Source: Candidatus Latescibacterota bacterium
Lineage (GTDB): Bacteria > Latescibacterota > UBA2968 > UBA8231
NCBI GenBank assembly: GCA_965242865.1
Contig: CBDETK010000013.1
Location: forward strand, 3,488,001-3,552,000
Reading direction: 5' to 3'
Length of the DNA: 64,000 nt
Part shown: positions 34,619-54,038 of the stretch, piece by piece
How positions within the stretch are numbered: the stretch's first letter is position 1
How the letters are laid out: each line of letters starts with the position of its first letter
The notes under the pieces: generated by a model
Told to the model about the DNA's origin: nothing
Seen by the model: only the letters and a program-made list of their open reading frames with translations
The model's database searches: none
Made by a program: the position numbers and the translations under genes

Positions 34619-34654
34619 GTTTCGATCTGCTTCCCTGCCGAAGCAAGGGGAGAC
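34619..34654 (-). repeat. Degenerate detached CRISPR repeat
   Basis: + strand GTTTCGATCTGCTTCCCTGCCGAAGCAAGGGGAGAC; last 14 nt identical to the consensus; 280 bp from the array. Confidence 0.85.
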
Positions 34655-34934: not shown

Positions 34935-37849
34935 GTTTCAATCCGCTCCCCTCACCAAAGCAAGGGGAGACTCGTTGACTTTGGCCCGCGCCTCCGATTA
35001 TTTCACGTTTCAATCCGCTCCCCTCACCAAAGCAAGGGGAGACATCATGGAATTACTCGTGCTGGCTGCCCTGGTCATGTTTCAATCCGCTCCCCTCACC
35101 AAAGCAAGGGGAGACAGCCGCAGCTCTTTGGCCAGCTCGCCGGTCAAGCTGTTTCAATCCGCTCCCCTCACCAAAGCAAGGGGAGACCCCGAAGACGTGC
35201 GCGACGAGGCGGTCATCCGGGTGTTTCAATCCGCTCCCCTCACCAAAGCAAGGGGAGACGGGTTAGTGCAGGGGGAAGCGTCGCTGTACAGCGGCGTTTC
35301 AATCCGCTCCCCTCACCAAAGCAAGGGGAGACGGGCGCTGGACTCCCCATCATACTCGAGGTAGCACCAGTTTCAATCCGCTCCCCTCACCAAAGCAAGG
35401 GGAGACCACGGGCATGACGACGGGCATGACGACGCCCATGAGTTTCAATCCGCTCCCCTCACCAAAGCAAGGGGAGACCCAAGTCGCTCGCCCGCACCGC
35501 CCGGCTAGAACGTAGTTTCAATCCGCTCCCCTCACCAAAGCAAGGGGAGACGCGAGCCCTTCTGCGGGATGGCTTCGATATTGCTCGTTTCAATCCGCTC
35601 CCCTCACCAAAGCAAGGGGAGACTTGGGGCTGGGGCGGACGTCAACGCGAAGGACAGAGTTTCAATCCGCTCCCCTCACCAAAGCAAGGGGAGACAAGGG
35701 ACAAGCGATACCGTGGTGCTGCATCTATTGTTTCAATCCGCTCCCCTCACCAAAGCAAGGGGAGACTCGCTCAGGTAGGCTACGATTACGTCCTTGCGCT
35801 TGTTTCAATCCGCTCCCCTCACCAAAGCAAGGGGAGACCGCGCCGTAACAGCACACCCACGTAGTTGATGGAGTTTCAATCCGCTCCCCTCACCAAAGCA
35901 AGGGGAGACGCGAGTTCGGCGGTGACCGCTGGCGATACAGTTTGTTTCAATCCGCTCCCCTCACCAAAGCAAGGGGAGACAACAAGGGGAACACGCGATT
36001 TCACGTGAGCGTAAAGTTTCAATCCGCTCCCCTCACCAAAGCAAGGGGAGACCGCCTCGCTGACGGATGGGCGTTACGTCATTTACGTTTCAATCCGCTC
36101 CCCTCACCAAAGCAAGGGGAGACCCGTCACGTCTCTCGTAGCGGCCGCGAACTGCAAGGTTTCAATCCGCTCCCCTCACCAAAGCAAGGGGAGACTGGGA
36201 ACCCTGTACCTTAGGGGGGCGGCGGCTTGGTTTCAATCCGCTCCCCTCACCAAAGCAAGGGGAGACGCCAATCTGATAGGCACAATCTACCAGGATGCCC
36301 TGTTTCAATCCGCTCCCCTCACCAAAGCAAGGGGAGACGCGTCGCGTCCGCGTAGAGGATCGCCGCGTCGGTGTTTCAATCCGCTCCCCTCACCAAAGCA
36401 AGGGGAGACTGCCGCACGCTGACCGAGGGCTTCATTGTCCTATGGGTTTCAATCCGCTCCCCTCACCAAAGCAAGGGGAGACGCGCCGCGCCCGCGAACA
36501 ACGACATGGCCCAGCGAAGTTTCAATCCGCTCCCCTCACCAAAGCAAGGGGAGACTTGCCAATTTATCCTTGCTTGGGTTGGCATGATAGGTTTCAATCC
36601 GCTCCCCTCACCAAAGCAAGGGGAGACCCGCTGTGTGTGTGTGCCGCGCTTGGCCGCGGCACAGTTTCAATCCGCTCCCCTCACCAAAGCAAGGGGAGAC
36701 CCCCGGCTTGGGGTGCGGCAGGGGGCGGCGGCAAGGTTTCAATCCGCTCCCCTCACCAAAGCAAGGGGAGACACCGCGGCTTCGAGCGGCTTGTGTTCCT
36801 CGCAATCGTTTCAATCCGCTCCCCTCACCAAAGCAAGGGGAGACATATCAGGCCTCCTTTTGGTTGGGTGGGTGGACTGTTTCAATCCGCTCCCCTCACC
36901 AAAGCAAGGGGAGACGGGCCGTCAAGCCCCGCAACAAGCACATGGGCTTTGTTTCAATCCGCTCCCCTCACCAAAGCAAGGGGAGACGGGGCGCGCGGGG
37001 CGTTCCCACTTGGCTGGATCTAGTTTCAATCCGCTCCCCTCACCAAAGCAAGGGGAGACCCGATCATGCCAACCCAAGCAAGGTTATTTGGCTATGTTTC
37101 AATCCGCTCCCCTCACCAAAGCAAGGGGAGACACCGCACCTGCAAGGCTACCCGCTCATTGTCGATGTTTCAATCCGCTCCCCTCACCAAAGCAAGGGGA
37201 GACAGCCCGAGGGGTAATTGGTCTTGCCGCATTAGCTTGTTTCAATCCGCTCCCCTCACCAAAGCAAGGGGAGACCAAGCGACCGCGCCCACGTCGGCAG
37301 CCGATACCGTGTTTCAATCCGCTCCCCTCACCAAAGCAAGGGGAGACAACCCGAATGCGGTCTTGTCGGCTTGTATTTTTCTGTTTCAATCCGCTCCCCT
37401 CACCAAAGCAAGGGGAGACCGGGCGTTGAAGCTGGGAGCACGGTATAAGAAGATGTTTCAATCCGCTCCCCTCACCAAAGCAAGGGGAGACAGAGTGGAT
37501 TGAAACTTTTTCTTTTTTCTTTGCGTGTTTCAATCCGCTCCCCTCACCAAAGCAAGGGGAGACATTTGCGGCTGGGCGGTGAGTGCGAGGTGATCGAGTT
37601 TCAATCCGCTCCCCTCACCAAAGCAAGGGGAGACAAGGTGGAACGTTGGGCCGGTCTCGCCCCCGGCCCGTTTCAATCCGCTCCCCTCACCAAAGCAAGG
37701 GGAGACGATGCGTTGGTCAAAACGACCACGAGCGCGAACACGTTTCAATCCGCTCCCCTCACCAAAGCAAGGGGAGACAGGTAGAGGATTTTCCCTACTC
37801 GCTCTCGCGCTTGTTTCAATCCGCTCCCCTCACCAAAGCAAGGGGAGAC
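34935..37849 (-). CRISPR. CRISPR array, 41 repeats of 37 bp and 40 spacers of about 34-37 bp
   Basis: Repeat in the transcribed orientation GTCTCCCCTTGCTTTGGTGAGGGGAGCGGATTGAAAC (hairpin + ATTGAAAC end); about 72-bp period; leader on the cas2 side. Confidence 0.99.
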
Positions 37850-38029
37850 TCCGGTTGCTGTAACCAGCGGAACAACAAAAGGTTACATAAGTGGATGCGC
37901 GAACCTCCTTTCTTCCGCATCCTACGGCCGAAGCGAGAGCATACTCCTCGCTGTAAATTATTGTTAGCCATAAAGTTGCTAACTGCGCGAAAGTAAGCGC
38001 AAAACGCCGTTGCTTCGCATTCGCGCATG
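37850..38029 (-). promoter_or_regulatory. CRISPR leader
   Basis: Non-coding, relatively AT-rich stretch between the cas2 stop and the first repeat. Confidence 0.8.
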
Positions 38030-38320
38030 CTATAAGACCAGTGGCTCATTCAAGTCCACGGGTTCGTTAAGTCCGTGATGCTCCGTCTTGCCTCTGGCGT
38101 CTTCGTCCAGATAATAAAACCTGAGAGAATCCTGCTTGGGATCAATTCCCTTTAGCAGGCGACTCCTAAGCACCGCCCATTCCGTTTTTCCCACCTGACA
38201 TTCAAAAAGCGATTTCTGCACTCGGACGCCGTAATCCTTACAGGCTCTTGCCACTTGGCGTAGCCGTCGTTGGCCAGCTCGGTCGGTAGTAGAAACGTCG
38301 TACGCGATCAGGATAAACAT
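38030..38320 (-). CDS. cas2: Cas2
   Basis: MFILIAYDVST...RRLRQVARAC..YGVRVQKSLFEC...DSLRFY. Confidence 0.97.
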   Translation of the reverse strand: MFILIAYDVSTTDRAGQRRLRQVARACKDYGVRVQKSLFECQVGKTEWAVLRSRLLKGIDPKQDSLRFYYLDEDARGKTEHHGLNEPVDLNEPLVL

Positions 38321-39375
38321 TATTTTGGAATGAAGGGGATATAGTCCGGGACATCGCCGCGGAGCTTGCGGGCCAACAATTTGGCCTGAATACTGAATAC
38401 TTGCCCCAAGCGGACATTCTGCTTGAATAGGGCGTGTTTTACTTCTGTTTGCTTGCGCCGTTGCCAAGCTTGGATGACCTCTCGCCTGCCTTGGTCGGTA
38501 AATTCTACGGCCCCGCCCTCTCGCTCGCGAAAGTGCTTGGCCTCGATCTGCCGTCGATTGATCAGGGTCAATGCCAGCCGCTCTGCCAAACAGGGTCGAA
38601 ACTCTTCCATGAGGTCTAAGGCGCAAGCCGGCCTTCCCGCTCGCGTTACATGAAGCCAGCCGACATAAGCGTCCAACCCAGCGGTCGTTAGCGCGGCTAA
38701 GCAATCGTGGCGCACCAAGGCATAAATAAAGGAAAGCAGGCAGTTTATCCGATCCCGGGGCGGACGCCGCGTCCGGGTTAAAAACCTGAAGTCTTCTCGC
38801 TGTTGTTTGAGCATACATTGGAACACCGAGAAGTAGGTCTTGGCCCCTAGCCCCTCTAAGCCCCTGATTGGGTCGAGTGCTTCCCTAAGCCCGCAGTCTG
38901 GGGCAATAGGTGGGGCAGCGCCGAGTTGGCGGATTAGCCGGGCCAGTTCATGCGCTGCATCTGCCAAGGCCGTGCGGTCGGCATCGCCATCGGCTTCCCG
39001 TCCGGCTCGCAAGAGATTGGAGCGTGCGTTTTGCAATTTTCCAGCGACGAATTGCCGGGCAATGCGCGCGGCCTCTTGCGGGCTGTCTGCTGCGGCATAC
39101 TGCGCCCGGCGCAGCAAGTAGCGGGTATCTCCGCTTCCCAAGACTTGTGCCAGCAAGTAGCCGTTCTCCGTGTGGTAATGAACCGCCACTTGATGATCCC
39201 AGCACAAGGCCATGGCCGGGGGCGTAACCACGACCCGCCCAAACGCACAAATGCTTTCCAAATGGTGAATCGGCACGGTCAGGCGATTTTGCTTTTCAAT
39301 CTCGACTCGCAACGTCAAGTGGTCCCTGTGTACCACAGTACCCGGCGTCGTCAAATAAAGAGTGTTTTGTTTCAA
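38320..39375 (-). CDS. cas1: Cas1 (type I-C)
   Basis: NTLYLTT, RGLEG..A..YF, RRPPRDRINCLLSF.Y, LDLMEEFRP. TTG 39375 with AGGGAG RBS is the likely start (track start 39411); both lie inside repeat-like DNA. Confidence 0.96.
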   Translation of the reverse strand: MKQNTLYLTTPGTVVHRDHLTLRVEIEKQNRLTVPIHHLESICAFGRVVVTPPAMALCWDHQVAVHYHTENGYLLAQVLGSGDTRYLLRRAQYAAADSPQEAARIARQFVAGKLQNARSNLLRAGREADGDADRTALADAAHELARLIRQLGAAPPIAPDCGLREALDPIRGLEGLGAKTYFSVFQCMLKQQREDFRFLTRTRRPPRDRINCLLSFIYALVRHDCLAALTTAGLDAYVGWLHVTRAGRPACALDLMEEFRPCLAERLALTLINRRQIEAKHFREREGGAVEFTDQGRREVIQAWQRRKQTEVKHALFKQNVRLGQVFSIQAKLLARKLRGDVPDYIPFIPK

Positions 39376-39454
39376 TCCGTCTCCCTGTTTCAATCCGTTT
39401 CCCTCACCCAAGCAAGAGGAGACGCTGATTGCCGTAACCAGCGGAATGACAAAA
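39369..39454 (-). repeat. Leader fragment + degenerate repeat + half repeat at the cas1 start
   Basis: 39387-39423 matches the repeat at 33/37; 39369-39386 is the repeat 3' half; 39424-39454 matches leader 37850-37880 at 25/31. Confidence 0.92.
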
Positions 39455-39480
39455 TCCTTAAATAGGAGATCCAGACGGGT

Positions 39481-40137
39481 CTAGTCGGTAGTATCGAACA
39501 CTGCCCGATAGGCCCGCGCCAGCGTGGGCGGAACACTGGTGATTTCGGGAAGGCAATGGTCGAAAAGCGAGCACTCGGAACATTGGGGTTTGTGAACAGC
39601 TTGTGGAACCGCGTCCTCCTCAATTATCCGGTGCATGGCTGCGATGGCCTGCTCGGTGAGGCGGCGCAAATCCTCGGTAAATTCCACCTCGCGGCGGCGC
39701 TTGCTCTTGGCGTGGAAGATGGCCCCGCGGGGAATGTCCCGTCCAAACATCTCTTCCAAACACAGGGCTTGCGCGCAAAGCTGGGCGTCGTCGTTGTCAA
39801 ACTTGCGGCGTTTGCCCTTTTTGAACTCGACCGGAACCAACGAACCATCGGGATGGCGTTCAACAATGTCGCACTTGCCGCTGAGCCGCAGCCGATCCGA
39901 CCAGACGGGCAGGGCGCGCAACAGCGTCACGCCCTTGACGGTTTCGTAGCCGGAAACGTCGGCCTGATCATGAAGTTGGCTCCCGACCACCGTATGCACG
40001 TTGTCGCTAAAGGTTCCCTCAACGTGAATTAAGGCCGCCCGGCGAGGGCAATAGAGATATTGATTGATAGAGGAGAGCGGGATGGTCCGCCCCCCACTAT
40101 CGAATGATTGAATCGGCAGGGTGCCCGTTTCATTCAT
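39481..40137 (-). CDS. cas4: Cas4
   Basis: YCPRR, GKCDIVE, PVEFKKG, QLCAQALCLEE, CSECSLFDHC Fe-S cysteines. Confidence 0.97.
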   Translation of the reverse strand: MNETGTLPIQSFDSGGRTIPLSSINQYLYCPRRAALIHVEGTFSDNVHTVVGSQLHDQADVSGYETVKGVTLLRALPVWSDRLRLSGKCDIVERHPDGSLVPVEFKKGKRRKFDNDDAQLCAQALCLEEMFGRDIPRGAIFHAKSKRRREVEFTEDLRRLTEQAIAAMHRIIEEDAVPQAVHKPQCSECSLFDHCLPEITSVPPTLARAYRAVFDTTD

Positions 40138-40173
40138 GTTTCAATCCGCCCCCGTACTCGGAGCCAAGGCGCC
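40138..40173 (-). repeat. Repeat-like hairpin + handle filling the cas7-cas4 gap
   Basis: TGA-GGCGCCTTGGCTCCGAGTACGGGGGCGGATTGAAAC-ATG; 15 of the last 16 nt match the repeat 3' end. Confidence 0.85.
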
Positions 40174-41130
40174 TCAGGCATGACGCTTGTGCAAGCGCAC
40201 ACCGGCCGGTAGGTCCGTGCTATCCCACCCACAGCTAACCTCGTAATCGGCAAAAGATTTGGGAAATTCCACGCTATCCTTCAACGTCACCTCAATGCCC
40301 TCGAAGAGCTTGTGAGCATGGGCGCAACCGAGGCGGGCTTCTCGCCTGTTCTGCGCGGCGTTGTTCTCGTGCTGGGTGCCGACATGCTCAAAGTCGTAGA
40401 TGCCGCGCACCGCCATTTCGCCGCGGGCGGCGGAGCGGTCATGCTCGAACATCTGGTTGAGTGCGTCAAAGAGAATGTCGAGATCGGCGTTGGTGAAACC
40501 CGTGCGCTCGGCAAAGGCCGGAGATACGTAAGCCTTGGCGGCATAGAGGGCGTAGGGCACAATGTGCTTGTTGCCCATGGTGCGTTCCTTCTCGGCGTCC
40601 TCTTCTTTGGTCACGGCCATGCGAGTAATGGAAATCTCCATCGGGGTGATAGGGTGGTACGACTGGCCGAAGGTAAATTGCACCGGGCCGCGCACTTGGC
40701 CCCAAGCAGAGCCTCTCATAATATCGTTACCGACAGCAAGCACACCACCAAAGGCACGGACATCAAAGAACTCGCGACACAGCCATTTCATGGCGGCTTC
40801 CTGTTGTTCGGATTTGGACGCACCCGAAGCCAAGCCCTCACCGCTTTTCTTAATGCCGTTGCTGATCTCATTGCTGAGCACGGCACCCTGCTTGATCAGC
40901 AGATTATAGCCGTTGGCCCCATTCTCCCCAATCCGCTCCGGGGAGAACATTTCGACGAAGTTCCGCACCTTGCGCTTAAGGCACACATCGGAGACGATGC
41001 CGCGGTTGGTATTGGGGTCAAGGCGCGGCATGTTGCCAGCATCGGGATCGCCGTTGGGATTGCCATTCGTGACATCGAAGATCAGCAACACATCGTGCCG
41101 ATTGGTGAGGATGTCGTTGAGTTTGTTCAT
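40174..41130 (-). CDS. cas7: Cas7c (Csd2)
   Basis: NGNPNGDPDAGNMPR, DVCLKRKVRN, DVRAFG, RGPVQ, TMGNKH, DRSAAR. Confidence 0.97.
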   Translation of the reverse strand: MNKLNDILTNRHDVLLIFDVTNGNPNGDPDAGNMPRLDPNTNRGIVSDVCLKRKVRNFVEMFSPERIGENGANGYNLLIKQGAVLSNEISNGIKKSGEGLASGASKSEQQEAAMKWLCREFFDVRAFGGVLAVGNDIMRGSAWGQVRGPVQFTFGQSYHPITPMEISITRMAVTKEEDAEKERTMGNKHIVPYALYAAKAYVSPAFAERTGFTNADLDILFDALNQMFEHDRSAARGEMAVRGIYDFEHVGTQHENNAAQNRREARLGCAHAHKLFEGIEVTLKDSVEFPKSFADYEVSCGWDSTDLPAGVRLHKRHA

Positions 41131-41151
41131 CGTTCAATCTCCTGTCAGGGG

Positions 41152-43020
41152 TTATTGGTTATCGGTTTCTTTGTTTTGCTTGGCCGCCTCGCGGGCGACG
41201 CGAGCTTCGGCTTTTTGCTGGTAAAAGCCGATGGCGAACCGCCCCTGCGCGTGCAGGTCCAGCGTGCGGGGAAATTGGTTGACCCGGGTCAACACATCTT
41301 GAATGGCTTCGTCGAGGAAACGCTCATGACCTTTATACTTGTCGGACTTGCCGATTTTGCTGAGGTGATGGCGGTTGAGTTTGAGAAGAACGGGAAACAC
41401 CGAGGCCGGCGAGGCCATGGCAGTGCCAAAGTACCGTTCGACAACGCCGGCACCTTCAAGCGAATAGTCATGCGCCTTGGCCTGAGTTTCGGCGAGGACA
41501 GCGAGCAATCGACCGCATTGATAGGCCGCATCGCCCGTATCGGCGGTTTGTCTTTCTGCAATCTCCATAATGTCGTCCTTTCTGTTTCGGTTTAGAATGA
41601 GTTTCGCCAAGGCGAAACGGGAATGGTTCGATAATGCCTTGCTCCCATCCTTGCTCCCATCGCACGCTATATCCACGCGCAGGCGGTTTAGTATGGGATG
41701 CAACAGAGTAAGTGAAGGGGCAGTCCCTTCCAGTGCGGCGCGAAATAATTGTGCGATCACTTCCGTTTTCAAATCCTTCGCATCGCGTACCGTAGCACAG
41801 GCCAGTCGGAATAGGCCCAACGGCGGCATCTTTTCCGTGCCAGATGGCGGACGCACAGGCTCCAAATCTAGATCGCTGAACCAGCGTCGCAAGCTTTCCG
41901 TAGCGATTTCCAAAGTAGTCTGCATCCAGTGGCGCACGACGATTCGCCCGCTGTTGCCCGCGAGAGTGACGGCATAGAACTGCTCCTGCCGCAACAACTC
42001 GCGCTCTTGTCCAGACCATGGGGATTTCAGAAAATCCGCCACGGCCTTGGGGTCAGCATCGTTAAGCAAAGCCCCCCAAGCACTCGTGGCGTTCGTTTTG
42101 TTGCGAGTCCAGAAGCAACAGATGGTCGGCCCAAGTCTGACTGAATGATCTCCTCTGAAAATCATGAACTTCAAGGCCTCCGTATAAGCCTTTGAAGCTT
42201 CCACGGAGCATGGCGCATTGCTACCTTGTTTCAAACCGAAAGAAGAAAAAGAGGGAGAAGACTTTTCGAATGAAACCAATCTTGAACCACTGGGTTGCCC
42301 TCCAGGTACGCGTTTGATTTCAGGATGCGAACGCTCGATCGGAACTTCATTATCTCCAGTTATCAAGCATAATCCCGTCTCAACTTGAAGCGACTCCTGT
42401 TCTTCCCGGAATACTTCTCTCCAATAAGGCTTAATACAGTCTTCTTCTTCCAAAACCAAATTACCTTCCACGTTAAACGAGAAATTGTCGGTGCCTAATT
42501 TGACTTTTTCCCCGCTAGATGTGGTAATCCACCACGCAGGTTTCTCATTTTTTTTTGGATTTTCACTCAAGTTCCATTCCAAAAAGGAAGGTATTTCGCC
42601 CCGCTCTAGCTGAAACTGTTTTATCGCCTTCAACAAGTGGTTCTGTGTAGCATGATGTGCGTCATTTATCTTTCTCCAAAAATCATCGAACTTGTCATTG
42701 TTATTTTTGTCCCGTTTTTCCTGTTGTGTAGGAGTCCGCTTCGTTCTCGATTCGGGATCACTTTCTAGTCTGAACAATGAGGTAATTCCATCTGCCAAAA
42801 AATCCCCGATTCCCCCTGCATTCTTATTTCCGACAGTTTTGGGGCACAGATAAATCTTTCCCTTGTTTTTGTTCTCTCCAACTGTTTCGATCGGCCCTTT
42901 GCCTACAAGTTTGCCATCAGAATCGATGGGGATAATCCAACGAACGGCCTTAGGTTCAAAGGCGGGATCATCGAGGAGTTTTCGAGAGTTCGCAAAGTCA
43001 TTCAAATGTTGCAGCAACAT
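41152..43020 (-). CDS. cas8c: Cas8c (Csd1)
   Basis: CLITG, LVSF, GNSGRIVVR, YQCGRLLAVL, FAIGFYQQ. Confidence 0.95.
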   Translation of the reverse strand: MLLQHLNDFANSRKLLDDPAFEPKAVRWIIPIDSDGKLVGKGPIETVGENKNKGKIYLCPKTVGNKNAGGIGDFLADGITSLFRLESDPESRTKRTPTQQEKRDKNNNDKFDDFWRKINDAHHATQNHLLKAIKQFQLERGEIPSFLEWNLSENPKKNEKPAWWITTSSGEKVKLGTDNFSFNVEGNLVLEEEDCIKPYWREVFREEQESLQVETGLCLITGDNEVPIERSHPEIKRVPGGQPSGSRLVSFEKSSPSFSSFGLKQGSNAPCSVEASKAYTEALKFMIFRGDHSVRLGPTICCFWTRNKTNATSAWGALLNDADPKAVADFLKSPWSGQERELLRQEQFYAVTLAGNSGRIVVRHWMQTTLEIATESLRRWFSDLDLEPVRPPSGTEKMPPLGLFRLACATVRDAKDLKTEVIAQLFRAALEGTAPSLTLLHPILNRLRVDIACDGSKDGSKALSNHSRFALAKLILNRNRKDDIMEIAERQTADTGDAAYQCGRLLAVLAETQAKAHDYSLEGAGVVERYFGTAMASPASVFPVLLKLNRHHLSKIGKSDKYKGHERFLDEAIQDVLTRVNQFPRTLDLHAQGRFAIGFYQQKAEARVAREAAKQNKETDNQ

Positions 43021-43022
43021 GA

Positions 43023-43826
43023 TCAGGCCCCTTTAGGTTCGAGGATTTCAACTTCATCGGGATGGCAAGCCAAGGTGGAATTCTCGATCTTGGCGCGGAA
43101 GAAACAGGCCCTCGGTTTCGCCAATTCGCCGACAAAACGCGGGGTATTCTTTTTTGGTTTGGGTCCTAGTTCGTCCGGGCGTTTCCAGCGAAAGCCCTCG
43201 GCTCGGGCGTTGGGTGAAAAAACATCGTAGAGCATCCAACCCAAGTCCTCCTCGGGCTGCCGCCAACTGGTACCAAGTTCGGCTGTTCGCTCTTCCATGG
43301 CAGTTTGGGGATCATCCACCCACTCGAAGTCCGCCGCAAATTCACGCATACCCAAGGCTGGCCGATGGAAGCACTTGCCCTGTTGGGCGCGGCGCTTGAA
43401 TTCAGCGAAATACTTCATCGGCGGGTCAGTCTTGCGATCCGCCAACGGCGTGGTACGCAACTCGGCACTGATGATGTACTCCACTTCCTGCAAAGCCAAC
43501 ATGTTGCGCTGGGTACCGTCGGGTGCGCCACCGCCTGCCTCAATAGGTTTGACCTTCTCCGGCTGAGCCATCCATTGACTGACGTTACGTAGGCTGATGA
43601 CCGACTGCACTTCATTGCGCCGAATGGAGGCCCAGCGGCCTCGCCGCACCACCCGGATGGCGGCGACGCGATAGCAGACTTGGGGCTCCCAAAAGACAGC
43701 TTCCAAGATGCCTCGGGCCGCAGAAGGCGTCATAATTGGATAACTGACGCGCTCCACTTTCATTTCAGGGCGGGTGAAACAGGCCCAGTCGCCCCAGACT
43801 CTCAGATGTACGTAGTTACCTTTCAT
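43023..43826 (-). CDS. cas5: Cas5d/Cas5c crRNA-processing endoribonuclease
   Basis: WGDWACFTRPEMKVERVSY..MTPSAARG, IRRNEV, LGMREF, DLGWMLYD. Confidence 0.97.
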   Translation of the reverse strand: MKGNYVHLRVWGDWACFTRPEMKVERVSYPIMTPSAARGILEAVFWEPQVCYRVAAIRVVRRGRWASIRRNEVQSVISLRNVSQWMAQPEKVKPIEAGGGAPDGTQRNMLALQEVEYIISAELRTTPLADRKTDPPMKYFAEFKRRAQQGKCFHRPALGMREFAADFEWVDDPQTAMEERTAELGTSWRQPEEDLGWMLYDVFSPNARAEGFRWKRPDELGPKPKKNTPRFVGELAKPRACFFRAKIENSTLACHPDEVEILEPKGA

Positions 43827-46075
43827 AGCAAAAAATCCTCGGTTGGGCGTGAACCAATAACCACGCCGAGATGTTCGTGATAAGCGGCCTCATCCAAAAC
43901 TCTGAGTTCCATGCCGGGGAGCAGTGGGCGGAGTAGCCCCATTGAATCCAACGCATGGAAATCGCGCAAATGCAGATTCACCATAAAGCGTTGGAGATCG
44001 CGCAAATCCTTGCGCGTGAAACGCGGACCACCCGTTTGAGCGCGTTCTCTGATGGCGTCCACTTCTTCCAAGGCTTGCTTCATTGGCGCGATGACAGCCT
44101 GCGTGTCATCGGTGATTACCTTGGCCTTGCGGGCCACTTCGCGGAAACGCAACGCCTCTCGATCTTCTTGAATGGGGCATTCCCGTTTGCGATCGTGATC
44201 CGTGGACACGCATTCAAAAAGCTCCGCAAAATAACGCCCGAACAACGCCGGCTCGCAAGACCAATCATCCGTAGCCAAATCATCCAACAACCGTGCCGCA
44301 ATGTCCGTGGCGACGCGATAGACGCCGCCGGGCAACTTGGCTTCTATTGGCCGGAACACCACCACGCGCCCTTTGTTCGGCAGGCGTCCTTCTCGATTGC
44401 ACCGTCCTGCCGCCTGCACAATCGAATCTAGCGGTCCCAAGGCTCGATAAACCAACGGAAAGTCAATATCCACCCCGGCCTCTACGACCTGCGTAGAAAC
44501 CAACCAGCAAAATCGACCTTCCCTTAAACGCCGACGAACCTTTTTCAACACTTGAGTTCGATGTTCTGCACACATAGCAGAAGAAAGATGGAATACACTT
44601 CTCAGCCTTGCTTCCAACCTATCTTTTGATAAGCCTTGCTCTTTCAAAGAATCTCTCAACATTTCCCACCATTCGGCGGCCTGCTTGCGCGTATTTACTA
44701 CCCCCAAGGCTTGGGGTTCGCTTGTCCATTCTGTGGCTAATCCAGACCAATCGCTCTCTGTCTTTCGCACCGAGTACGCTACCCGGCCCAACTTCTTAAA
44801 CAAGTCATCGGGTTGCGATACGAGTTCCTTTACTTCGCGCTCATCAAAACCATTCGACAACGATGTGCTACGCTTAAAGGCCGGTTGGGTCGCCGTAGAA
44901 AAAACAAAACTCACTCGGTAGTGTTTTTTGAGGTCGCGCAACACATGTAGGAGCGGATTGAGCAGATGTGCAGGTAGCGTTTGCACCTCATCCAGCAACA
45001 CCACAGAATTTGCGATGTTGTGTAGTTTCCGGCACTTAGAAGTGCGATTGGCAAAGAGGGACTCGATGAACTGCACCGAAGTGGTGACGATGATCGGCGC
45101 GTCCCAGTTCTCTGCCGCCAATTCCTCTGGGGACCGGCCTTGTTCGTCATTATCATCTTTTGGTGCGACGGCCGAATGGTGCTCAATCACGATGCCTTCG
45201 TCGTTGGGGTCGAGCACTTTGCGGTATTCGGCGGCGTTTTGCTCGATGATTGACAGATACGGTATCACCACGATCACCCGCTCCATGTCATGCCGTCGCG
45301 CATGTTCCAAGGCAAAGGCCATGCCCGAAAGCGTCTTGCCCCCGCCCGTCGGCACGGTTAAAAAAAAGAAGCCTGTCGGCTCCGCGGCCTTTGCCAAGCA
45401 GTCTTCAAACACGCGGTTACGCAACGCATTGAGTTCGCCCGAAGAATCAAACTCGCCCCGGTGCGCTTGCAGTCGCTCTAGTAACAACGCAGCGTCCAGC
45501 TTCAGCGAGCGTCGTTCTTGGCCACGGCTAAATTGTTCCGTATCCAGAAAATCCGCATCCACCAAACAGGAAAACAACATTCGCACGTAGAATTCTGCGA
45601 CAGCCTTGTCCTCTGCACACTTGGCAAATTCCGGTTCGGCTAACTCGTTGGGAATTTTCCCCAATTCATCTTCAAACCGTTTTACCAGAGGTACGAGCCG
45701 GTTCACAGCATCGTATTTCTCGCCGCCAACCAATGCCTGCAAATCACTCACGTCATGCAGCCCCGCATGGTGCCCAGCAATGGCAAAAGCTGGGCCGACC
45801 CACTCTCGTTGAAACGCTAAAGCGGCACCAAACACCGCATGATGCGTTTCAGCAGATCCTGGGCGTTTGCCTGCCAAGTATTCTTGGAATGGCTCCCGAT
45901 ATTTTCCTAAGTCGTGGAGTAGCCCAGCCCATTTCGCGGCGGGGCCGAGTGGTCCACCAAACTCCCGAGCCTTTTCCGCCACATTTCGCAAATGCTCGGA
46001 TAACGGTTGCCAGTGCGATTTATTCGGATCGCGTTCCCCAGCCTCCGTTTCAGCGGTGTGAGCGTAATAATTCAT
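43823..46075 (-). CDS. cas3: Cas3 HD nuclease-helicase
   Basis: HDLGK, HHAG, LVDAD, PTGGGKT, DEVQ, TATQP, QAAGRCNR. Confidence 0.98.
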   Translation of the reverse strand: MNYYAHTAETEAGERDPNKSHWQPLSEHLRNVAEKAREFGGPLGPAAKWAGLLHDLGKYREPFQEYLAGKRPGSAETHHAVFGAALAFQREWVGPAFAIAGHHAGLHDVSDLQALVGGEKYDAVNRLVPLVKRFEDELGKIPNELAEPEFAKCAEDKAVAEFYVRMLFSCLVDADFLDTEQFSRGQERRSLKLDAALLLERLQAHRGEFDSSGELNALRNRVFEDCLAKAAEPTGFFFLTVPTGGGKTLSGMAFALEHARRHDMERVIVVIPYLSIIEQNAAEYRKVLDPNDEGIVIEHHSAVAPKDDNDEQGRSPEELAAENWDAPIIVTTSVQFIESLFANRTSKCRKLHNIANSVVLLDEVQTLPAHLLNPLLHVLRDLKKHYRVSFVFSTATQPAFKRSTSLSNGFDEREVKELVSQPDDLFKKLGRVAYSVRKTESDWSGLATEWTSEPQALGVVNTRKQAAEWWEMLRDSLKEQGLSKDRLEARLRSVFHLSSAMCAEHRTQVLKKVRRRLREGRFCWLVSTQVVEAGVDIDFPLVYRALGPLDSIVQAAGRCNREGRLPNKGRVVVFRPIEAKLPGGVYRVATDIAARLLDDLATDDWSCEPALFGRYFAELFECVSTDHDRKRECPIQEDREALRFREVARKAKVITDDTQAVIAPMKQALEEVDAIRERAQTGGPRFTRKDLRDLQRFMVNLHLRDFHALDSMGLLRPLLPGMELRVLDEAAYHEHLGVVIGSRPTEDFLL

Positions 46076-46185
46076 TCAATTCTCTCCTGAAAATCTAACA
46101 TCTCCGCCCTAAAGTCGTGCTCCTCCTGCTTGGGGCTGGAGTGGTTTACTCAGCCAATGAACACTTCGTCCAGACACTTCCGCGC

Positions 46186-52721: not shown

Positions 52722-54038
52722 TCAGTCGCCGCCCACGGCCAACAACCTAAATCCCCCGGGAGCCAATTCCACGGTTGCGGCTCGGTTGTCGATCGCCAAG
52801 GCCGCGCCGGTCGCTGCATCGCGAGCCTCGTCCTTCTTCAGGGCCAACCCCACGCGCCGCCGTTCCCAAGTGCGCCGATTGACGACCAACACGTGGGTCT
52901 GCTGCTGGAGGTCGCCAAAAAATCCGAGCTCTAAGTCGGCATCGGCCGCGGCGATCAGCTCGTTTTCAGCGAGACGGTCTGTGCTCGTCGCGCCGCGAAA
53001 GTACAGGCCGGCGATCGCCGGACTCAGCGCGGCGATCAGCTCGTTGATCTTTTGCACGGCCGCATAGCTCGCCGTAGGAGCCCCAGCTCGATCTACCAAC
53101 CCCTCATACCAGCGCGTCTGGACCAGCGCACCGCGGGCATCGCGCACCTTTTCGAGGCCCGAGCTGTAGAGAAAATAGACGATGCCCGAGGCCCCCCGCG
53201 TCAGCGCGAATCCCACTTGGACGGAAATTTCCGCCGGCGAAGGCTGGCGATAGTACGGCTTCCCGCCGCGTGTCTCGCCGTGTACTTGCACGATGGCGTG
53301 CCAGCGGCCCCAGTGGGCGCGCAGGTGGGCGGCGACTTGGTCGTATCCGGCGAGCAAGGCGTTGAGCCGACGCTGTAAGCCCGCGCCCGCGTGCGGCGCG
53401 TGGCTCCTAAACACGTAGTGCTCGTGTTGAAAGATGTTGGGCGGCCCGCGCTGGCGGAAAAACGCCTCGGCAAAGGCCCGGCGGTCCTCGTAGTGGTCGA
53501 GCCGCCCCACAGTGAGGACCGGCCGCAGGGAGTCAGCGCGCCCGAGTGCAGACACGACCTCGGCGAGCGCGTCGTAGTACTCTTCCCGATAGTCTTCGTG
53601 CCCCACGAGATAGCCCTGCAACCCGGCCGCGCCCTCCCACTGCGCGACGAGAGCTCGCACTCGCAGAGAGAGCGAGTCGGCAAATCCCGCGCCCACCGGG
53701 GAGCGCGTGGCCCAGCGTTGCAACTTGTCGTCGGGCGCGTACCCGGGCGGCTCGTAAAAGACCGGCATCTGCCAGCCGCGGGCATGGCAAAAGTCCATGG
53801 CCCGCTCTTCGGCCGTTTTTCCGCCCACCTCGGCCCGCTGCAACCACTCTAGCTGATTCAGGCCCAGTTCGGCGAGCTGCTGCCGGTCGGTCGCGCTGAA
53901 CCGATAGGTGTCCAGCCCGGCCGGCAACCACGCGCCCACGACGAGCGCACCGATGGGGGTGGGCACAGAGGGACGCGGGGGCTCACACCCGGCCCCGGCC
54001 AGCAGCACCGCCCCGAGATAGAGGAGGTAGAATTTCAA
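52722..54038 (-). CDS. Hypothetical lipoprotein (possible glycoside-hydrolase-like TIM barrel)
   Basis: Lipobox LAGAG-C; GYLVGHE, GASGIVYF; overlaps the upstream stop. Confidence 0.55.
   Translation of the reverse strand: MKFYLLYLGAVLLAGAGCEPPRPSVPTPIGALVVGAWLPAGLDTYRFSATDRQQLAELGLNQLEWLQRAEVGGKTAEERAMDFCHARGWQMPVFYEPPGYAPDDKLQRWATRSPVGAGFADSLSLRVRALVAQWEGAAGLQGYLVGHEDYREEYYDALAEVVSALGRADSLRPVLTVGRLDHYEDRRAFAEAFFRQRGPPNIFQHEHYVFRSHAPHAGAGLQRRLNALLAGYDQVAAHLRAHWGRWHAIVQVHGETRGGKPYYRQPSPAEISVQVGFALTRGASGIVYFLYSSGLEKVRDARGALVQTRWYEGLVDRAGAPTASYAAVQKINELIAALSPAIAGLYFRGATSTDRLAENELIAAADADLELGFFGDLQQQTHVLVVNRRTWERRRVGLALKKDEARDAATGAALAIDNRAATVELAPGGFRLLAVGGD

What the first reader, a model, noticed from the sequence alone, without database searches (positions are those of the whole stretch)
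39369..39454. cas1 RBS and start codon are built from CRISPR repeat DNA, behind a copy of the leader-repeat junction
Seen, in transcription order: a 31-nt leader copy (25/31 match to 37850-37880), a full degenerate repeat (33/37), then an 18-nt half repeat AGGGAGACGGA-TTG-AAAC that supplies both the Shine-Dalgarno and the likely TTG start (LKQNTLYLTT). Known: Cas5d cuts repeat hairpins and stays on the 5' handle; leader-repeat junctions are Cas1-Cas2 integration sites; degenerate repeats regulate cas genes in CreA/CreR systems. Inference: the cas1-cas2 mRNA is processed or occluded by Cas5d/Cascade, giving post-transcriptional feedback on adaptation. The site might also accept spacers.
Basis: partly seen in the sequence, partly recalled or inferred. 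Interest (0 to 1): 0.8.

Follow-up and report, generated by a model that had tools for sequence, protein, structure and literature searches.

The report
CRISPR repeat relic starts cas1
A worn copy of the CRISPR repeat sits directly in front of the cas1 gene and supplies its ribosome-binding site and start codon; relatives carry similar relics in front of cas1, cas4 and cas2, so it is inherited rather than a one-off scar, and it might let the CRISPR machinery act on its own messenger RNA.

Summary
On the minus strand of a type I-C locus in a Latescibacterota MAG, the cas4-cas1 spacer holds three things. There is a 31-nt leader-like stretch (25/31), a degenerate repeat (33/37; covariance model E 4e-9), and an 18-nt copy of that repeat's 3' end. 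This copy carries GGGAG and the TTG that fits the Cas1 N-terminus.

Comparative data change the picture. The repeat relic is ancestral to a widely transferred cas4-cas1-cas2 module. With the array-repeat HMM, 11 of 11 sense-strand hits (E<0.1) in 33 operons abut the start of cas4, cas1 or cas2. No hit was found in 402 intragenic control segments. The leader-like patch and the 18-nt duplication are specific to this genome.

Best reading: a decaying solitary repeat co-opted as a translation initiation region.

The Cas5c/Cascade feedback idea remains untested, and the evidence is mixed:
- In favour, both handles are intact, and the handle before cas4 is strongly conserved (P about 3e-5).
- Against, the stem base next to the cut site is broken here.
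- Against, only 2 of 26 relics fold better than shuffled sequence.
- Against, the handle before cas1 evolves near-neutrally (P=0.13).

No RNA data exist, and no spacer insertion was seen. I rate it a new variant of a known kind (solitary repeat units in cas loci).

The parts
39424..39454 (-). Leader-like stretch, a copy of the last 31 nt of a CRISPR leader. It includes the junction palindrome GCTGGTT..AATCAGC with one mismatch. Weaker similarity continues to about 39465.
   Evidence: It matches the own leader at 25/31, the G007 leader at 26/31 and the L039 leader at 27/31. It is part of the 68-nt, 85% identity, E 2.5e-15 match. It is absent at this position in G007, G019, L038 and L039.
39387..39423 (-). 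Degenerate solitary CRISPR repeat: 33/37 identical, 8 of 10 stem pairs kept, 11-nt handle intact. It contains the in-frame TTGs at 39411 and 39393.
   Evidence: Covariance model 33.7 bits, E 4.3e-9, with non-standard pairs at model positions 3-26 and 5-24. nhmmer E 4.7e-6. MFE -10.3 against -17.6 kcal/mol for the array repeat, z -0.5.
39369..39386 (-). 18-nt tandem duplicate of the relic's 3' end. GGGAG (39385-39381) is the likely Shine-Dalgarno and TTG (39375-39373) the likely cas1 start.
   Evidence: 17/18 identical to 39404-39387. Predicted duplex with a recalled anti-SD motif is -8.2 kcal/mol, like cas3 and cas7 at -7.4. The TTG sits two codons before the invariant Q3.
38320..39375 (-). 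cas1 (type I-C Cas1c), 351 aa counted from TTG 39375; the stop overlaps the cas2 ATG (TAATG).
   Evidence: TIGR03640 scores 418.6 bits against a cut-off of 385. It is 85-94% identical to four relatives.
38030..38320 (-). cas2
   Evidence: TIGR01573, E 2.6e-15. Start read.
37850..38029 (-). True CRISPR leader
   Evidence: It lies between the cas2 stop and the first repeat. Its length is conserved: 183 nt from the last cas2 codon in 17 of 25 loci.
34935..37849 (-). CRISPR array: 41 identical 37-nt repeats, each with a 10-bp stem, a tetraloop and an 11-nt handle.
   Evidence: Across 19 related array repeats the stem pairs in 100% of cells and shows covariation.
39481..40137 (-). cas4; its stop codon is in frame with cas1.
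   Evidence: TIGR00372, 130 bits. Frame read.
40138..40173 (-). Second, more decayed repeat relic. It fills the whole cas7-cas4 spacer, and its exact handle CGGATTGAAAC abuts the cas4 ATG.
   Evidence: Covariance model 16.4 bits, E 0.0014. Homologous relics occur in L034, L038, L045 and L063. The handle shows 2 minimum changes in 11 sites against 11.4 expected from 4-fold sites, P about 3e-5.
40174..46075 (-). Effector genes: cas3 (46075-43823), cas5c (43826-43023), cas8c (43020-41152) and cas7 (41130-40174).
   Evidence: NCBIfam models TIGR01876, TIGR01863 and TIGR02589 all score above their cut-offs.

Best explanation
The element is a decaying solitary CRISPR repeat inherited with a horizontally mobile cas4-cas1-cas2-leader-array module. 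In this genus it has been co-opted as the translation initiation region of cas1.

How it works:
- The 3' arm of the old repeat stem (GGGAG) serves as the Shine-Dalgarno sequence.
- The TTG inside the repeat's ATTGAAAC tail serves as the start codon. In this genus the ancestral ATG-GCC-ATT-NNN codons are absent.

Two later events are specific to this genome:
- An 18-nt in-frame tandem duplication renewed the SD plus TTG unit. The copy nearest the gene reads GGGAG where the older one reads GGGAA.
- A patch of leader sequence was copied in by recombination or gene conversion with a leader-repeat junction.

What is shown: the sequence identity, the homology with relatives, the position relative to start codons, and the lack of any other start codon.

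What is inferred: that TTG 39375 is the codon actually used, that GGGAG acts as the SD, and the order of events. On this reading any contact with Cas5c is incidental.
For: Identity and significance.

The relic is inherited.
- G007 and G019 (same genus) carry one degenerate repeat fused to cas1 codon 3, with TTG in ATTG[A/C]AAC as the only start. They have no leader copy.
- In 6 further loci (L032, L034, L038, L039, L042, L050), plus the metagenome locus L064, the relic ends directly at the ATG of ATG-GCC-ATT (or ATG-ATT in L032).

Position is non-random.
- In 33 operons stripped of arrays (285,513 nt) the array-repeat HMM gives 12 hits at E<0.1.
- 11 of them are on the sense strand. All 11 end within -13 to +29 nt of the first codon of cas4 (4), cas1 (4) or cas2 (3).
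- In upstream segments, 18 of 95 have a hit at E<1: 8 of 32 for cas1, 4 of 32 for cas4, 6 of 31 for cas2. None of 402 intragenic sense segments does.

Ancestry: on a cas1 tree of 30 rows, the relic-bearing loci form the basal grade of the 25-row clade, with 4 state changes.

Parallel exaptation at cas2: in G040, L029, L030, L031, L033 and L035 the relic gives AGGAG(A/T)G plus TTG-AAA in place of ATG-TTT-ATC, while its hairpin is lost.

Renewal of start features.
- In G019 the relic's TTG has become TTA, and a 9-nt duplicate GATTGAAAC supplies TTG.
- Here the 18-nt duplicate improves GGGAA to GGGAG.
- Predicted SD duplex energies are -8.2 kcal/mol (TTG 39375), -8.1 (39393) and +0.6 (39411).

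Decay pattern.
- Only 2 of 26 relic segments fold better than shuffles at z<-2.
- The cas1-site handle has 15 minimum changes in 11 sites against 18.4 expected, P=0.13.
Against: - No proteomic or ribosome data show which TTG is used. None of the three possible Cas1 sequences is in the protein collection.
- The anti-SD motif used was recalled, not read from this genome's 16S rRNA.
- A pure RBS role does not explain why the 11 nt between the SD and the ATG are almost invariant in the homologous relic before cas4 (2 changes against 11.4 expected).
- It also does not explain why both handles here are 11/11 intact.
- Passages read in PMC8524198 say Cas5c recognises mainly the cut site and the handle. 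Passages read in PMC10651486 report that a solitary I-C repeat carried on an mRNA inhibits a I-C system. So an RNA like this one could well be bound.
- Relic presence or absence on the tree was scored partly by eye.
Confidence: 0.6

Rival explanations
1. Handle-mimic feedback. The repeat relics in front of cas1, and of cas4 and cas2 in relatives, are bound or cut by Cas5c, or nucleate Cascade subunits on the cas mRNA. Free effector protein then lowers translation of the adaptation genes. This would resemble ribosomal proteins repressing their own mRNAs through rRNA mimics.
For: - Both handles here are 11/11, and 8 of 10 stem pairs are kept.
- The handle before cas4 in 5 loci shows 2 changes against 11.4 expected from 4-fold sites, P about 3e-5.
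- 4 of those 5 cas4 relics keep a 6-7-bp stem ending at the handle. L034 has CTCCTC/GAGGAG where array repeats have CTCCCC/GGGGAG, which is a change on both sides of the stem.
- The G019 cas1 relic (-15.2 kcal/mol, z -4.4) and the G025 cas4 relic (-25.4, z -5.7) are strongly structured.
- Cas5c recognises the cut site plus the handle (PMC8524198, passages read).
- RacrIC1, a solitary I-C repeat on a bicistronic mRNA, inhibits I-C immunity (PMC10651486, passages read).
Against: - In this genome the two pairs nearest the scissile bond are broken (3-26 and 5-24). Only 2 contiguous pairs abut the handle.
- Stem-base mutations inhibited B. halodurans Cas5c, according to PMC8524198 (passage read).
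- The 18-nt copy has no 5' arm of its own.
- 24 of 26 relics are no more stable than shuffles.
- The cas1-site handle is not significantly conserved.
- The relic has been lost from much of the clade without replacement. It is essentially absent from 64 distinct loci of a more distant I-C clade that has the same handle.
- Gene conversion from array repeats could also keep handles intact.
Confidence: 0.25
2. Inert recombination scar. The repeat, leader patch and duplication are neutral debris from array-mediated rearrangement and play no part in cas1 expression beyond lying upstream.
For: - The cas1 relic evolves at about the rate of 4-fold sites.
- It is lost in many lineages.
- Shmakov et al. 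consider most solitary repeat units spurious (PMC10120712, Discussion read).
Against: - There is no ATG, GTG or TTG other than the three repeat-derived TTGs between the cas4 stop and the invariant Cas1 N-terminus. So cas1 must initiate inside the relic.
- The SD and TTG were renewed by duplication in two genomes.
- Relics end exactly at start codons.
Confidence: 0.07
3. Second live integration site. The copied leader-repeat junction at 39424/39423 is recognised by Cas4-Cas1-Cas2 and can seed a new mini-array in front of cas1.
For: The junction and its palindrome are close to the family consensus, ending ..CAGC|GTCTCC as in most related leaders.
Against: - Only about 31-45 of about 180 leader nt are present.
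- No spacer lies between the repeat and the half repeat.
- Contigs of 3 runs bridge 37822-39936 with no gaps, and a fourth covers 39083-39460. One of the three is a strain variant with 19 substitutions.
Confidence: 0.04
4. CreA/CreR-type guide. The relic gives a crRNA-like RNA whose pseudo-spacer directs Cascade to repress a promoter.
For: Degenerate repeats in cas loci do this in I-B, I-F and V-A systems (PMC10120712, Discussion read).
Against: - There is no second repeat at spacer distance.
- The pseudo-spacers after the three handles have no PAM-flanked seed match near the cas promoter.
- The single TTC-flanked 14-mer with 2 mismatches (at 52968) lies about 7 kb away. By my own estimate that is within chance.
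Confidence: 0.02

Closest known systems
Standalone repeat-like sequences / solitary repeat units (SRUs) in CRISPR-cas loci (Shmakov et al. 2023, PMC10120712; sections 20, 21, 27 and Table 1 read)
   Same: It is a degenerate repeat outside the array, in an intergenic spacer of the cas operon, and conserved among related loci. That paper counts at least one repeat-like sequence in 34% of 1,206 I-C loci.
   Different: - The sections read do not describe I-C cases.
- They do not describe repeats that abut start codons or supply the SD and start codon.
- They do not describe a copied leader junction.
- Their Table S5 lists positions relative to cas genes. It is a supplement that I could not open, and it may already hold cas4/cas1-adjacent hits.
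CreA / CreR / crRNA-like mini-array regulators
   Same: They are derived from degenerate CRISPR repeats inside cas loci and are proposed to couple effector abundance to gene expression.
   Different: Those are repeat-spacer-repeat units whose spacer partly matches a promoter, and they act on DNA. Here there is no spacer and no target. Any effect would be on the mRNA that carries the relic.
RNA anti-CRISPRs, e.g. RacrIC1 (Camara-Wilpert et al. 2023, PMC10651486; passages read)
   Same: A solitary I-C repeat embedded in a protein-coding transcript. It shows that such RNAs engage I-C Cas proteins.
   Different: Racrs are phage-encoded, lie downstream of an acr gene and act as decoys. This relic is chromosomal, lies upstream of cas1 and forms its start region.
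Canonical pre-crRNA repeat as Cas5c substrate (PMC8524198; passages read)
   Same: It has the same 11-nt handle and most of the hairpin.
   Different: The base of the stem next to the cut site carries two mismatches. The second copy lacks a 5' arm.
Autogenous translational control of ribosomal-protein operons by rRNA mimics (recalled textbook knowledge, not from a call)
   Same: In concept only: a binding-site mimic of the protein's normal RNA ligand is placed at the translation start of its own operon.
   Different: No binding or repression has been shown here. This is an analogy for the rival model.

Membership tests
Type I-C CRISPR-Cas locus | Cas5c, Cas8c and Cas7 (Csd2) effector genes plus Cas1c | tested here: met
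   TIGR01876 116.5 bits (cut-off 85), TIGR01863 331 (218.65), TIGR02589 293.6 (182.25), TIGR03640 418.6 (385).
Type I-C CRISPR-Cas locus | Hairpin repeat with an 11-nt 3' tail ending ATTGAAAC | tested here: met
   41 identical repeats. A 10-bp stem pairs in 100% of cells, with covariation, across 19 related repeats.
Solitary repeat unit in a cas locus (Shmakov 2023 criteria) | A match of at least 16 bp to the array repeat, outside the array, in an intergenic region of the locus | tested here: met
   68-nt match of 85% identity, E 2.5e-15. Covariance model E 4.3e-9.
Solitary repeat unit in a cas locus (Shmakov 2023 criteria) | Conserved in closely related loci | tested here: met
   Present before cas1 in G007 and G019 (same genus) and in G025. 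8 of 32 cas1 upstream segments have a hit at E<1.
Mini-array regulator (CreA/CreR/crlRNA) | Two repeat-like units separated by a spacer of about 30-36 nt | tested here: not met
   The 18-nt partial repeat follows the full relic with 0 nt between them.
Mini-array regulator (CreA/CreR/crlRNA) | Spacer partly complementary to a PAM-flanked promoter target | tested here: not met
   No seed match near the cas promoter. One distant hit is compatible with chance.
Cas5c processing substrate | Intact handle downstream of the cut site | tested here: met
   CGGATTGAAAC is exact at 39397-39387 and at 39379-39369.
Cas5c processing substrate | Stem paired down to the cut site | tested here: not met
   Pairs 3-26 and 5-24 are non-standard. 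Only 2 contiguous pairs end at the handle, against 10 in the array repeat.
Cas5c processing substrate | Actual cleavage or binding | not testable with these tools
   No RNA run is listed for this sequence.
Functional leader-repeat integration site | Full leader with its upstream elements next to a repeat | tested here: not met
   Only the last 31 nt (25/31) are clearly copied, out of a leader of about 180 nt.
Functional leader-repeat integration site | Evidence of spacer gain | tested here: inconclusive
   No insertion appears in the contigs of 4 runs. Contigs drop rare variants.

The most novel reading that the evidence does not exclude
The ancestor of this widely transferred type I-C adaptation module carried a CRISPR repeat directly in front of each of cas4, cas1 and cas2, and possibly cas3. 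The repeats were placed so that the crRNA 5' handle forms the last 11 nt before each start codon. Cas5c, alone or with Cas7 and Cas8c, binds or cuts these handle mimics when it is not occupied by crRNA. That would set the translation of the adaptation genes according to the balance between effector protein and guide RNA. This would be autogenous translational control by crRNA mimicry. The relic studied here would be a partly eroded, locally renewed survivor of that circuit.
Probability: 0.2. Interest if true: 0.8.

Novelty: new variant of a known kind. Interest (0 to 1): 0.5.

Why it matters
Solitary repeats inside cas loci are known statistically, but most have no assigned role. This case gives them a concrete role: supplying the ribosome-binding site and start codon of adaptation genes, repeatedly and in parallel at cas1 and cas2.

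It also shows that one cas4-cas1-cas2-leader-array module, with its relics, has moved between MAGs labelled as at least seven different phyla or classes. Along the way it has been combined with three divergent I-C effector sets.

The strongly conserved handle directly before the cas4 start codon makes a simple hypothesis testable with reporter fusions and one purified protein. The hypothesis is that Cas5c or Cascade senses its own mRNA, coupling adaptation to effector and crRNA levels.

For annotation, it warns that Cas1 and Cas2 starts in this family can be TTG codons inside repeat-like DNA.

Tried and rejected
I did not repeat it and used the DNA search, BLAST, nhmmer and the covariance model instead.
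- RNA evidence: no RNA holder is listed for window 38000-41200. Processing and expression could not be examined.
- Read laying on DNA contigs of 4 runs gave no joints or indels at the relic. One strain variant has 19 substitutions over 2,148 nt, none of them in 39369-39454, which is uninformative at that density.
- Promoter scan of 37800-40300: no sigma-70-like site on the minus strand. It is a consensus scan only.
- CreR-like target search: nothing convincing.
- Folding of the whole junction. The MFE pairs the relic's 5' arm GUCUCC with the duplicate's GGGAGAC, which would hide the SD. The z-scores are -0.53 and +0.57, so nothing distinguishes it from shuffled sequence and I make no claim from it.
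- hmmalign zone identities and ungapped pairwise identities show a gradient of conservation from 5' to 3'. They are confounded by local alignment and indels, so I relied on the resampling tests instead. The count of 15 changes used was made by hand, with gaps counted as states.
- A metagenome scan for the exact fusion of the repeat tail to cas1 codon 3 found 0 stretches.
- The Cas1-based metagenome scan mostly returned a 55-60% identical I-C clade, where relics are essentially absent. nhmmer with that clade's own repeat HMM gave 0 hits at E<1 in the distant-clade loci. The only hit among the 69 distinct loci searched was L063, which belongs to the close clade. The handle motif with at most 2 mismatches within 60 nt upstream occurred before cas1 in 3 of 64 loci, before cas2 in 0 of 64 and before cas4 in 4 of 52.
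- Exact look-up of three alternative Cas1 sequences: none is in the collection.
- Garside et al. 2012 (PMC3479392) is not held. Its content is cited only through passages of PMC8524198.
- Literature searches found no paper describing repeat-derived start codons or RBSs of cas genes, or repeats between cas4 and cas1 in I-C. Supplements were closed, notably Table S5 of PMC10120712.
- Rows dropped from the tree: L050, L055 and L056, because cas1 is truncated or only partly aligned.
- G019 and G025 are the same records as L027 and L045 and were counted once.
Full report
**The locus.** The window carries a complete type I-C system on the minus strand.
- cas3: 46075-43823
- cas5c: 43826-43023
- cas8c: 43020-41152
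- cas7: 41130-40174
- cas4: 40137-39481
- cas1: ending at 38320
- cas2: 38320-38030
- Leader of about 180 nt: 38029-37850
- Array of 41 identical 37-nt repeats: 37849-34935

The repeat GTCTCCCCTTGCTTTGGTGAGGGGAGCGGATTGAAAC folds into a 10-bp stem with a tetraloop, followed by an 11-nt tail. Across 19 related array repeats the stem pairs in 100% of cells and shows covariation. Record titles of close relatives place the genome among Latescibacterota MAGs.

**The observation.** Reading the cas4-cas1 spacer in transcription order gives:
- the cas4 stop TAG (39483-39481);
- 16 nt shared with relatives;
- a stretch resembling the end of the leader (39454-39424), 25/31 to the true leader;
- a degenerate repeat (39423-39387), 33/37;
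- an 18-nt unit AGGGAGACGGATTGAAAC (39386-39369);
- the conserved cas1 codons.

Statistical support is strong:
- Leader copy plus repeat form one 68-nt BLAST match of 85% identity, E 2.5e-15, against the whole genome.
- A covariance model of the array repeats scores the relic 33.7 bits, E 4.3e-9.

The 18-nt unit is 17/18 identical to the end of the adjacent relic but 15/18 to the canonical repeat. So it is a tandem duplication, six codons long and in frame.

The only ATG/GTG/TTG codons between the cas4 stop and the invariant Cas1 residues Q-N-T-L-Y-L-T-T are three TTGs (39411, 39393, 39375), all in repeat-derived DNA. TTG 39375 sits two codons before Q, which is where the Cas1c family model begins. 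It is preceded by GGGAG at a spacing of 5 nt.

**Relatives.** I compared the junction in 33 loci. These were the window, G007 and G040 from the genome set, and 30 loci from named genome records, in which G019 and G025 reappear as L027 and L045.

Same-genus genomes G007 and G019:
- Each has a single degenerate repeat fused to cas1 codon 3.
- TTG inside ATTG[A/C]AAC is the only start.
- They have no leader-like stretch. The short sequence in its place is also shared with L038 and L039.

Other loci:
- In L032, L034, L038, L039, L042 and L050, and in the metagenome locus L064, a decayed repeat ends directly at the ATG of ATG-GCC-ATT (ATG-ATT in L032).
- G025 has two partial repeat ends followed by a new SD and ATG.

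The same pattern occurs at other genes:
- A repeat relic fills the cas7-cas4 spacer of the window. The exact handle CGGATTGAAAC abuts the cas4 ATG (covariance model E 0.0014).
- Relics also lie before cas4 in L034, L038, L045 and L063.
- A relic precedes cas2 in G040, L029, L030, L031, L033 and L035. There TTG-AAA from ATTGAAAC replaces ATG-TTT-ATC, and the stem's 3' arm has become AGGAG(A/T)G. Weaker relics lie before the cas2 start in L037, L038, L042 and L045.

**Statistics of position.** An HMM of 19 array repeats was searched against the 33 operons with arrays removed (285,513 nt, both strands).
- It gave 12 hits at E<0.1.
- 11 are on the sense strand, and all 11 end within -13 to +29 nt of the first codon of cas4 (4), cas1 (4) or cas2 (3).
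- The twelfth is antisense, near the start of L040.
- In a focused search of 95 upstream segments, 18 have a hit at E<1: 8 of 32 for cas1, 4 of 32 for cas4, 6 of 31 for cas2.
- None of 402 intragenic sense-strand control segments (38,190 nt) has such a hit.

**History.** A maximum-likelihood tree was built from cas1 DNA starting at codon 3. It has 30 rows, and L050, L055 and L056 were left out as truncated.
- Loci with the cas1 relic form the basal grade of the 25-row clade.
- Loci without it form later branches.
- The fewest state changes are 4 for the cas1 relic, 4 for the cas2 relic and 6 for the cas4 relic. States were scored by nhmmer and partly by eye.

The simplest reading is an ancestral module with repeats before cas1 and cas2, and probably cas4, followed by decay and loss.

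The relics share stem variants with each other rather than with the local array. For example, CCTTGCTT.GGTAAGG occurs before cas1 in G019, whose array has CCTCGTTTCGGCGGGG. That speaks for inheritance rather than repeated fresh capture.

The leader-like patch is closer to the leaders of L039 (27/31) and G007 (26/31) than to the window's own leader (25/31). It therefore reflects an older or foreign leader-repeat junction copied onto the pre-existing relic.

The same adaptation module (Cas1 83-94% identical) occurs in MAGs labelled Latescibacterota, Binatia, Gemmatimonadota, Bryobacterales/Terriglobia, Opitutales, Rhodothermales and Alphaproteobacteria. It sits next to three divergent I-C effector sets.

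A more distant I-C clade (Cas1 55-60% identical, 64 distinct metagenome loci) uses the same handle but essentially lacks relics.

**What the relic does: evidence for a translation-start role.**
- In this genus cas1 has no other start codon.
- At cas2 the parallel relics have lost the hairpin but hold a strong SD plus TTG.
- Where the relic's own features eroded, short tandem duplications restored them. In G019 the relic's TTG became TTA, and a 9-nt duplicate supplies TTG. Here GGGAA became GGGAG in the 18-nt duplicate.
- Predicted pairing with a recalled anti-SD motif is -8.2 kcal/mol for TTG 39375 and -8.1 for TTG 39393. That is comparable to cas3 and cas7 at -7.4, whereas TTG 39411 gives +0.6.
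- Where the ATG is not adjacent to the relic (G025 cas1), a new SD lies between them. This fits selection on SD-start spacing.

**What the relic does: evidence on the Cas5c/Cascade idea.**

For:
- Both handles here are exact.
- According to passages read in PMC8524198, Cas5c recognises mainly the cut site and the handle.
- RacrIC1 shows that a solitary I-C repeat on an mRNA engages the I-C machinery (PMC10651486, passages read).
- In the five loci with a cas4 relic, the 11-nt handle shows 2 minimum changes. Eleven 4-fold degenerate sites drawn from cas4, cas7 and cas1 of the same loci average 11.4 (P about 3e-5 by resampling).
- Four of those five relics keep a 6-7-bp stem ending at the handle.

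Against:
- In the window's cas1 relic the two pairs nearest the scissile bond are broken. Only 2 contiguous pairs abut the handle.
- Stem-base mutations inhibited B. halodurans Cas5c (PMC8524198, passage read).
- Only 2 of 26 relic segments fold better than shuffles at z<-2.
- The cas1-site handle in 13 loci shows 15 changes (hand count) against 18.4 expected, P=0.13.
- Many lineages lost the relic.
- Gene conversion from array repeats could also preserve handles.

No RNA run is available.

**Other readings.**
- A CreR-like guide is unlikely. There is no spacer between the two repeat units and no PAM-flanked seed match near the cas promoter.
- A live integration site is unlikely. Only about 31 of about 180 leader nt are copied. 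Contigs from four runs, including one strain variant, cover the site without insertions, though rare variants would be missed.

**Comparison with what is known.** Shmakov et al. 2023 (PMC10120712; sections 20, 21, 27 and Table 1 read) report repeat-like sequences in 34% of I-C loci. They regard solitary units as mostly spurious and sometimes conserved. The sections read do not describe units that abut start codons or supply them. Their Table S5 could not be opened. Five full-text searches found no description of repeat-derived RBSs or start codons of cas genes. I therefore file the element as a solitary repeat unit of a I-C locus with a new use, that is, a new variant of a known kind.

**Verdict.**
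- The RBS and start-codon claim is well supported.
- The relic is inherited, and it is part of a wider pattern at cas4, cas1 and cas2.
- The leader copy and the half repeat are local events.
- The Cas5c feedback mechanism is possible at about one chance in four. The best place to test it is the conserved relic before cas4.
- Interest 0.5.

Noticed in passing
window 40138-40173 (-): The whole 36-nt cas7-cas4 spacer is a decayed repeat whose exact 11-nt handle abuts the cas4 ATG. Homologous relics occur in L034, L038, L045 and L063. Their handle is far more conserved than 4-fold sites (2 changes against 11.4 expected, P about 3e-5).
   Followed up: yes
G040 (L024), L029, L030, L031, L033, L035: cas1-cas2 spacer: A decayed repeat precedes cas2. 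TTG-AAA from ATTGAAAC replaces the usual ATG-TTT-ATC, and AGGAG(A/T)G acts as the SD. This is a parallel to the cas1 case.
   Followed up: yes
window 46076-46090 (-); L045 upstream of cas3; L029 upstream of cas5: Repeat-tail-like motifs lie directly before other cas starts: AGGAGAGAATTGA|ATG (window cas3), AAGCGGATTGAGATT|ATG (L045 cas3) and GAGGAATGGATTGAAAC|ATG (L029 cas5, nhmmer E 4.1). None is significant on its own.
   Followed up: partly
window 34619-34654 (-): A degenerate repeat (84% identity) lies about 280 nt beyond the last array repeat. It is probably an old array end.
   Followed up: no
G000 contig C4:12436-12539 and C13:4026324-4026361 (outside the window): The same genome has a second site with two repeats 97% identical to the array repeat, and a further single repeat-like match of 89% identity about 0.5 Mb away.
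   Followed up: no
loci L027-L050 and L055, plus G007 and G040: One cas4-cas1-cas2-leader-array module (Cas1 83-94% identical) is found in MAGs labelled as at least seven phyla or classes. It is combined with three divergent I-C effector sets. One of them has the order cas5-cas8-cas7-cas3 and scores below the family cut-offs. This points to horizontal transfer and module shuffling.
   Followed up: partly
leaders of 25 loci (e.g. window 37850-38029): Leader length is fixed at 183 nt from the last cas2 codon in 17 of 25 loci. There is a conserved TCGCGCAT box, and a palindrome GCTGGTTAC.GCAACCAGC abuts the first repeat. The palindrome is a candidate recognition site for the integrase.
   Followed up: no
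L022/L027 (G019) between cas7 and cas4; also L040 and L055: An extra ORF of roughly 130 aa is inserted between cas7 and cas4. The same C-terminal coding sequence (..KRLPAVLL..) is seen in L040 and L055. Its identity was not tested.
   Followed up: no
window 40929-40945 (-), inside cas7: CTCC..GGAGCGGATTG lies inside the cas7 coding sequence (covariance model 11.2 bits, E 0.061). The same GGAGCGGATTGA occurs in cas7 of L045. It could be coding conservation or another trace of a repeat.
   Followed up: no
window 39355-39430 (-): The predicted MFE pairs the relic's 5' arm GUCUCC with GGGAGAC of the 18-nt duplicate, which would hide the SD of TTG 39375. The z-score is only -0.53.
   Followed up: partly
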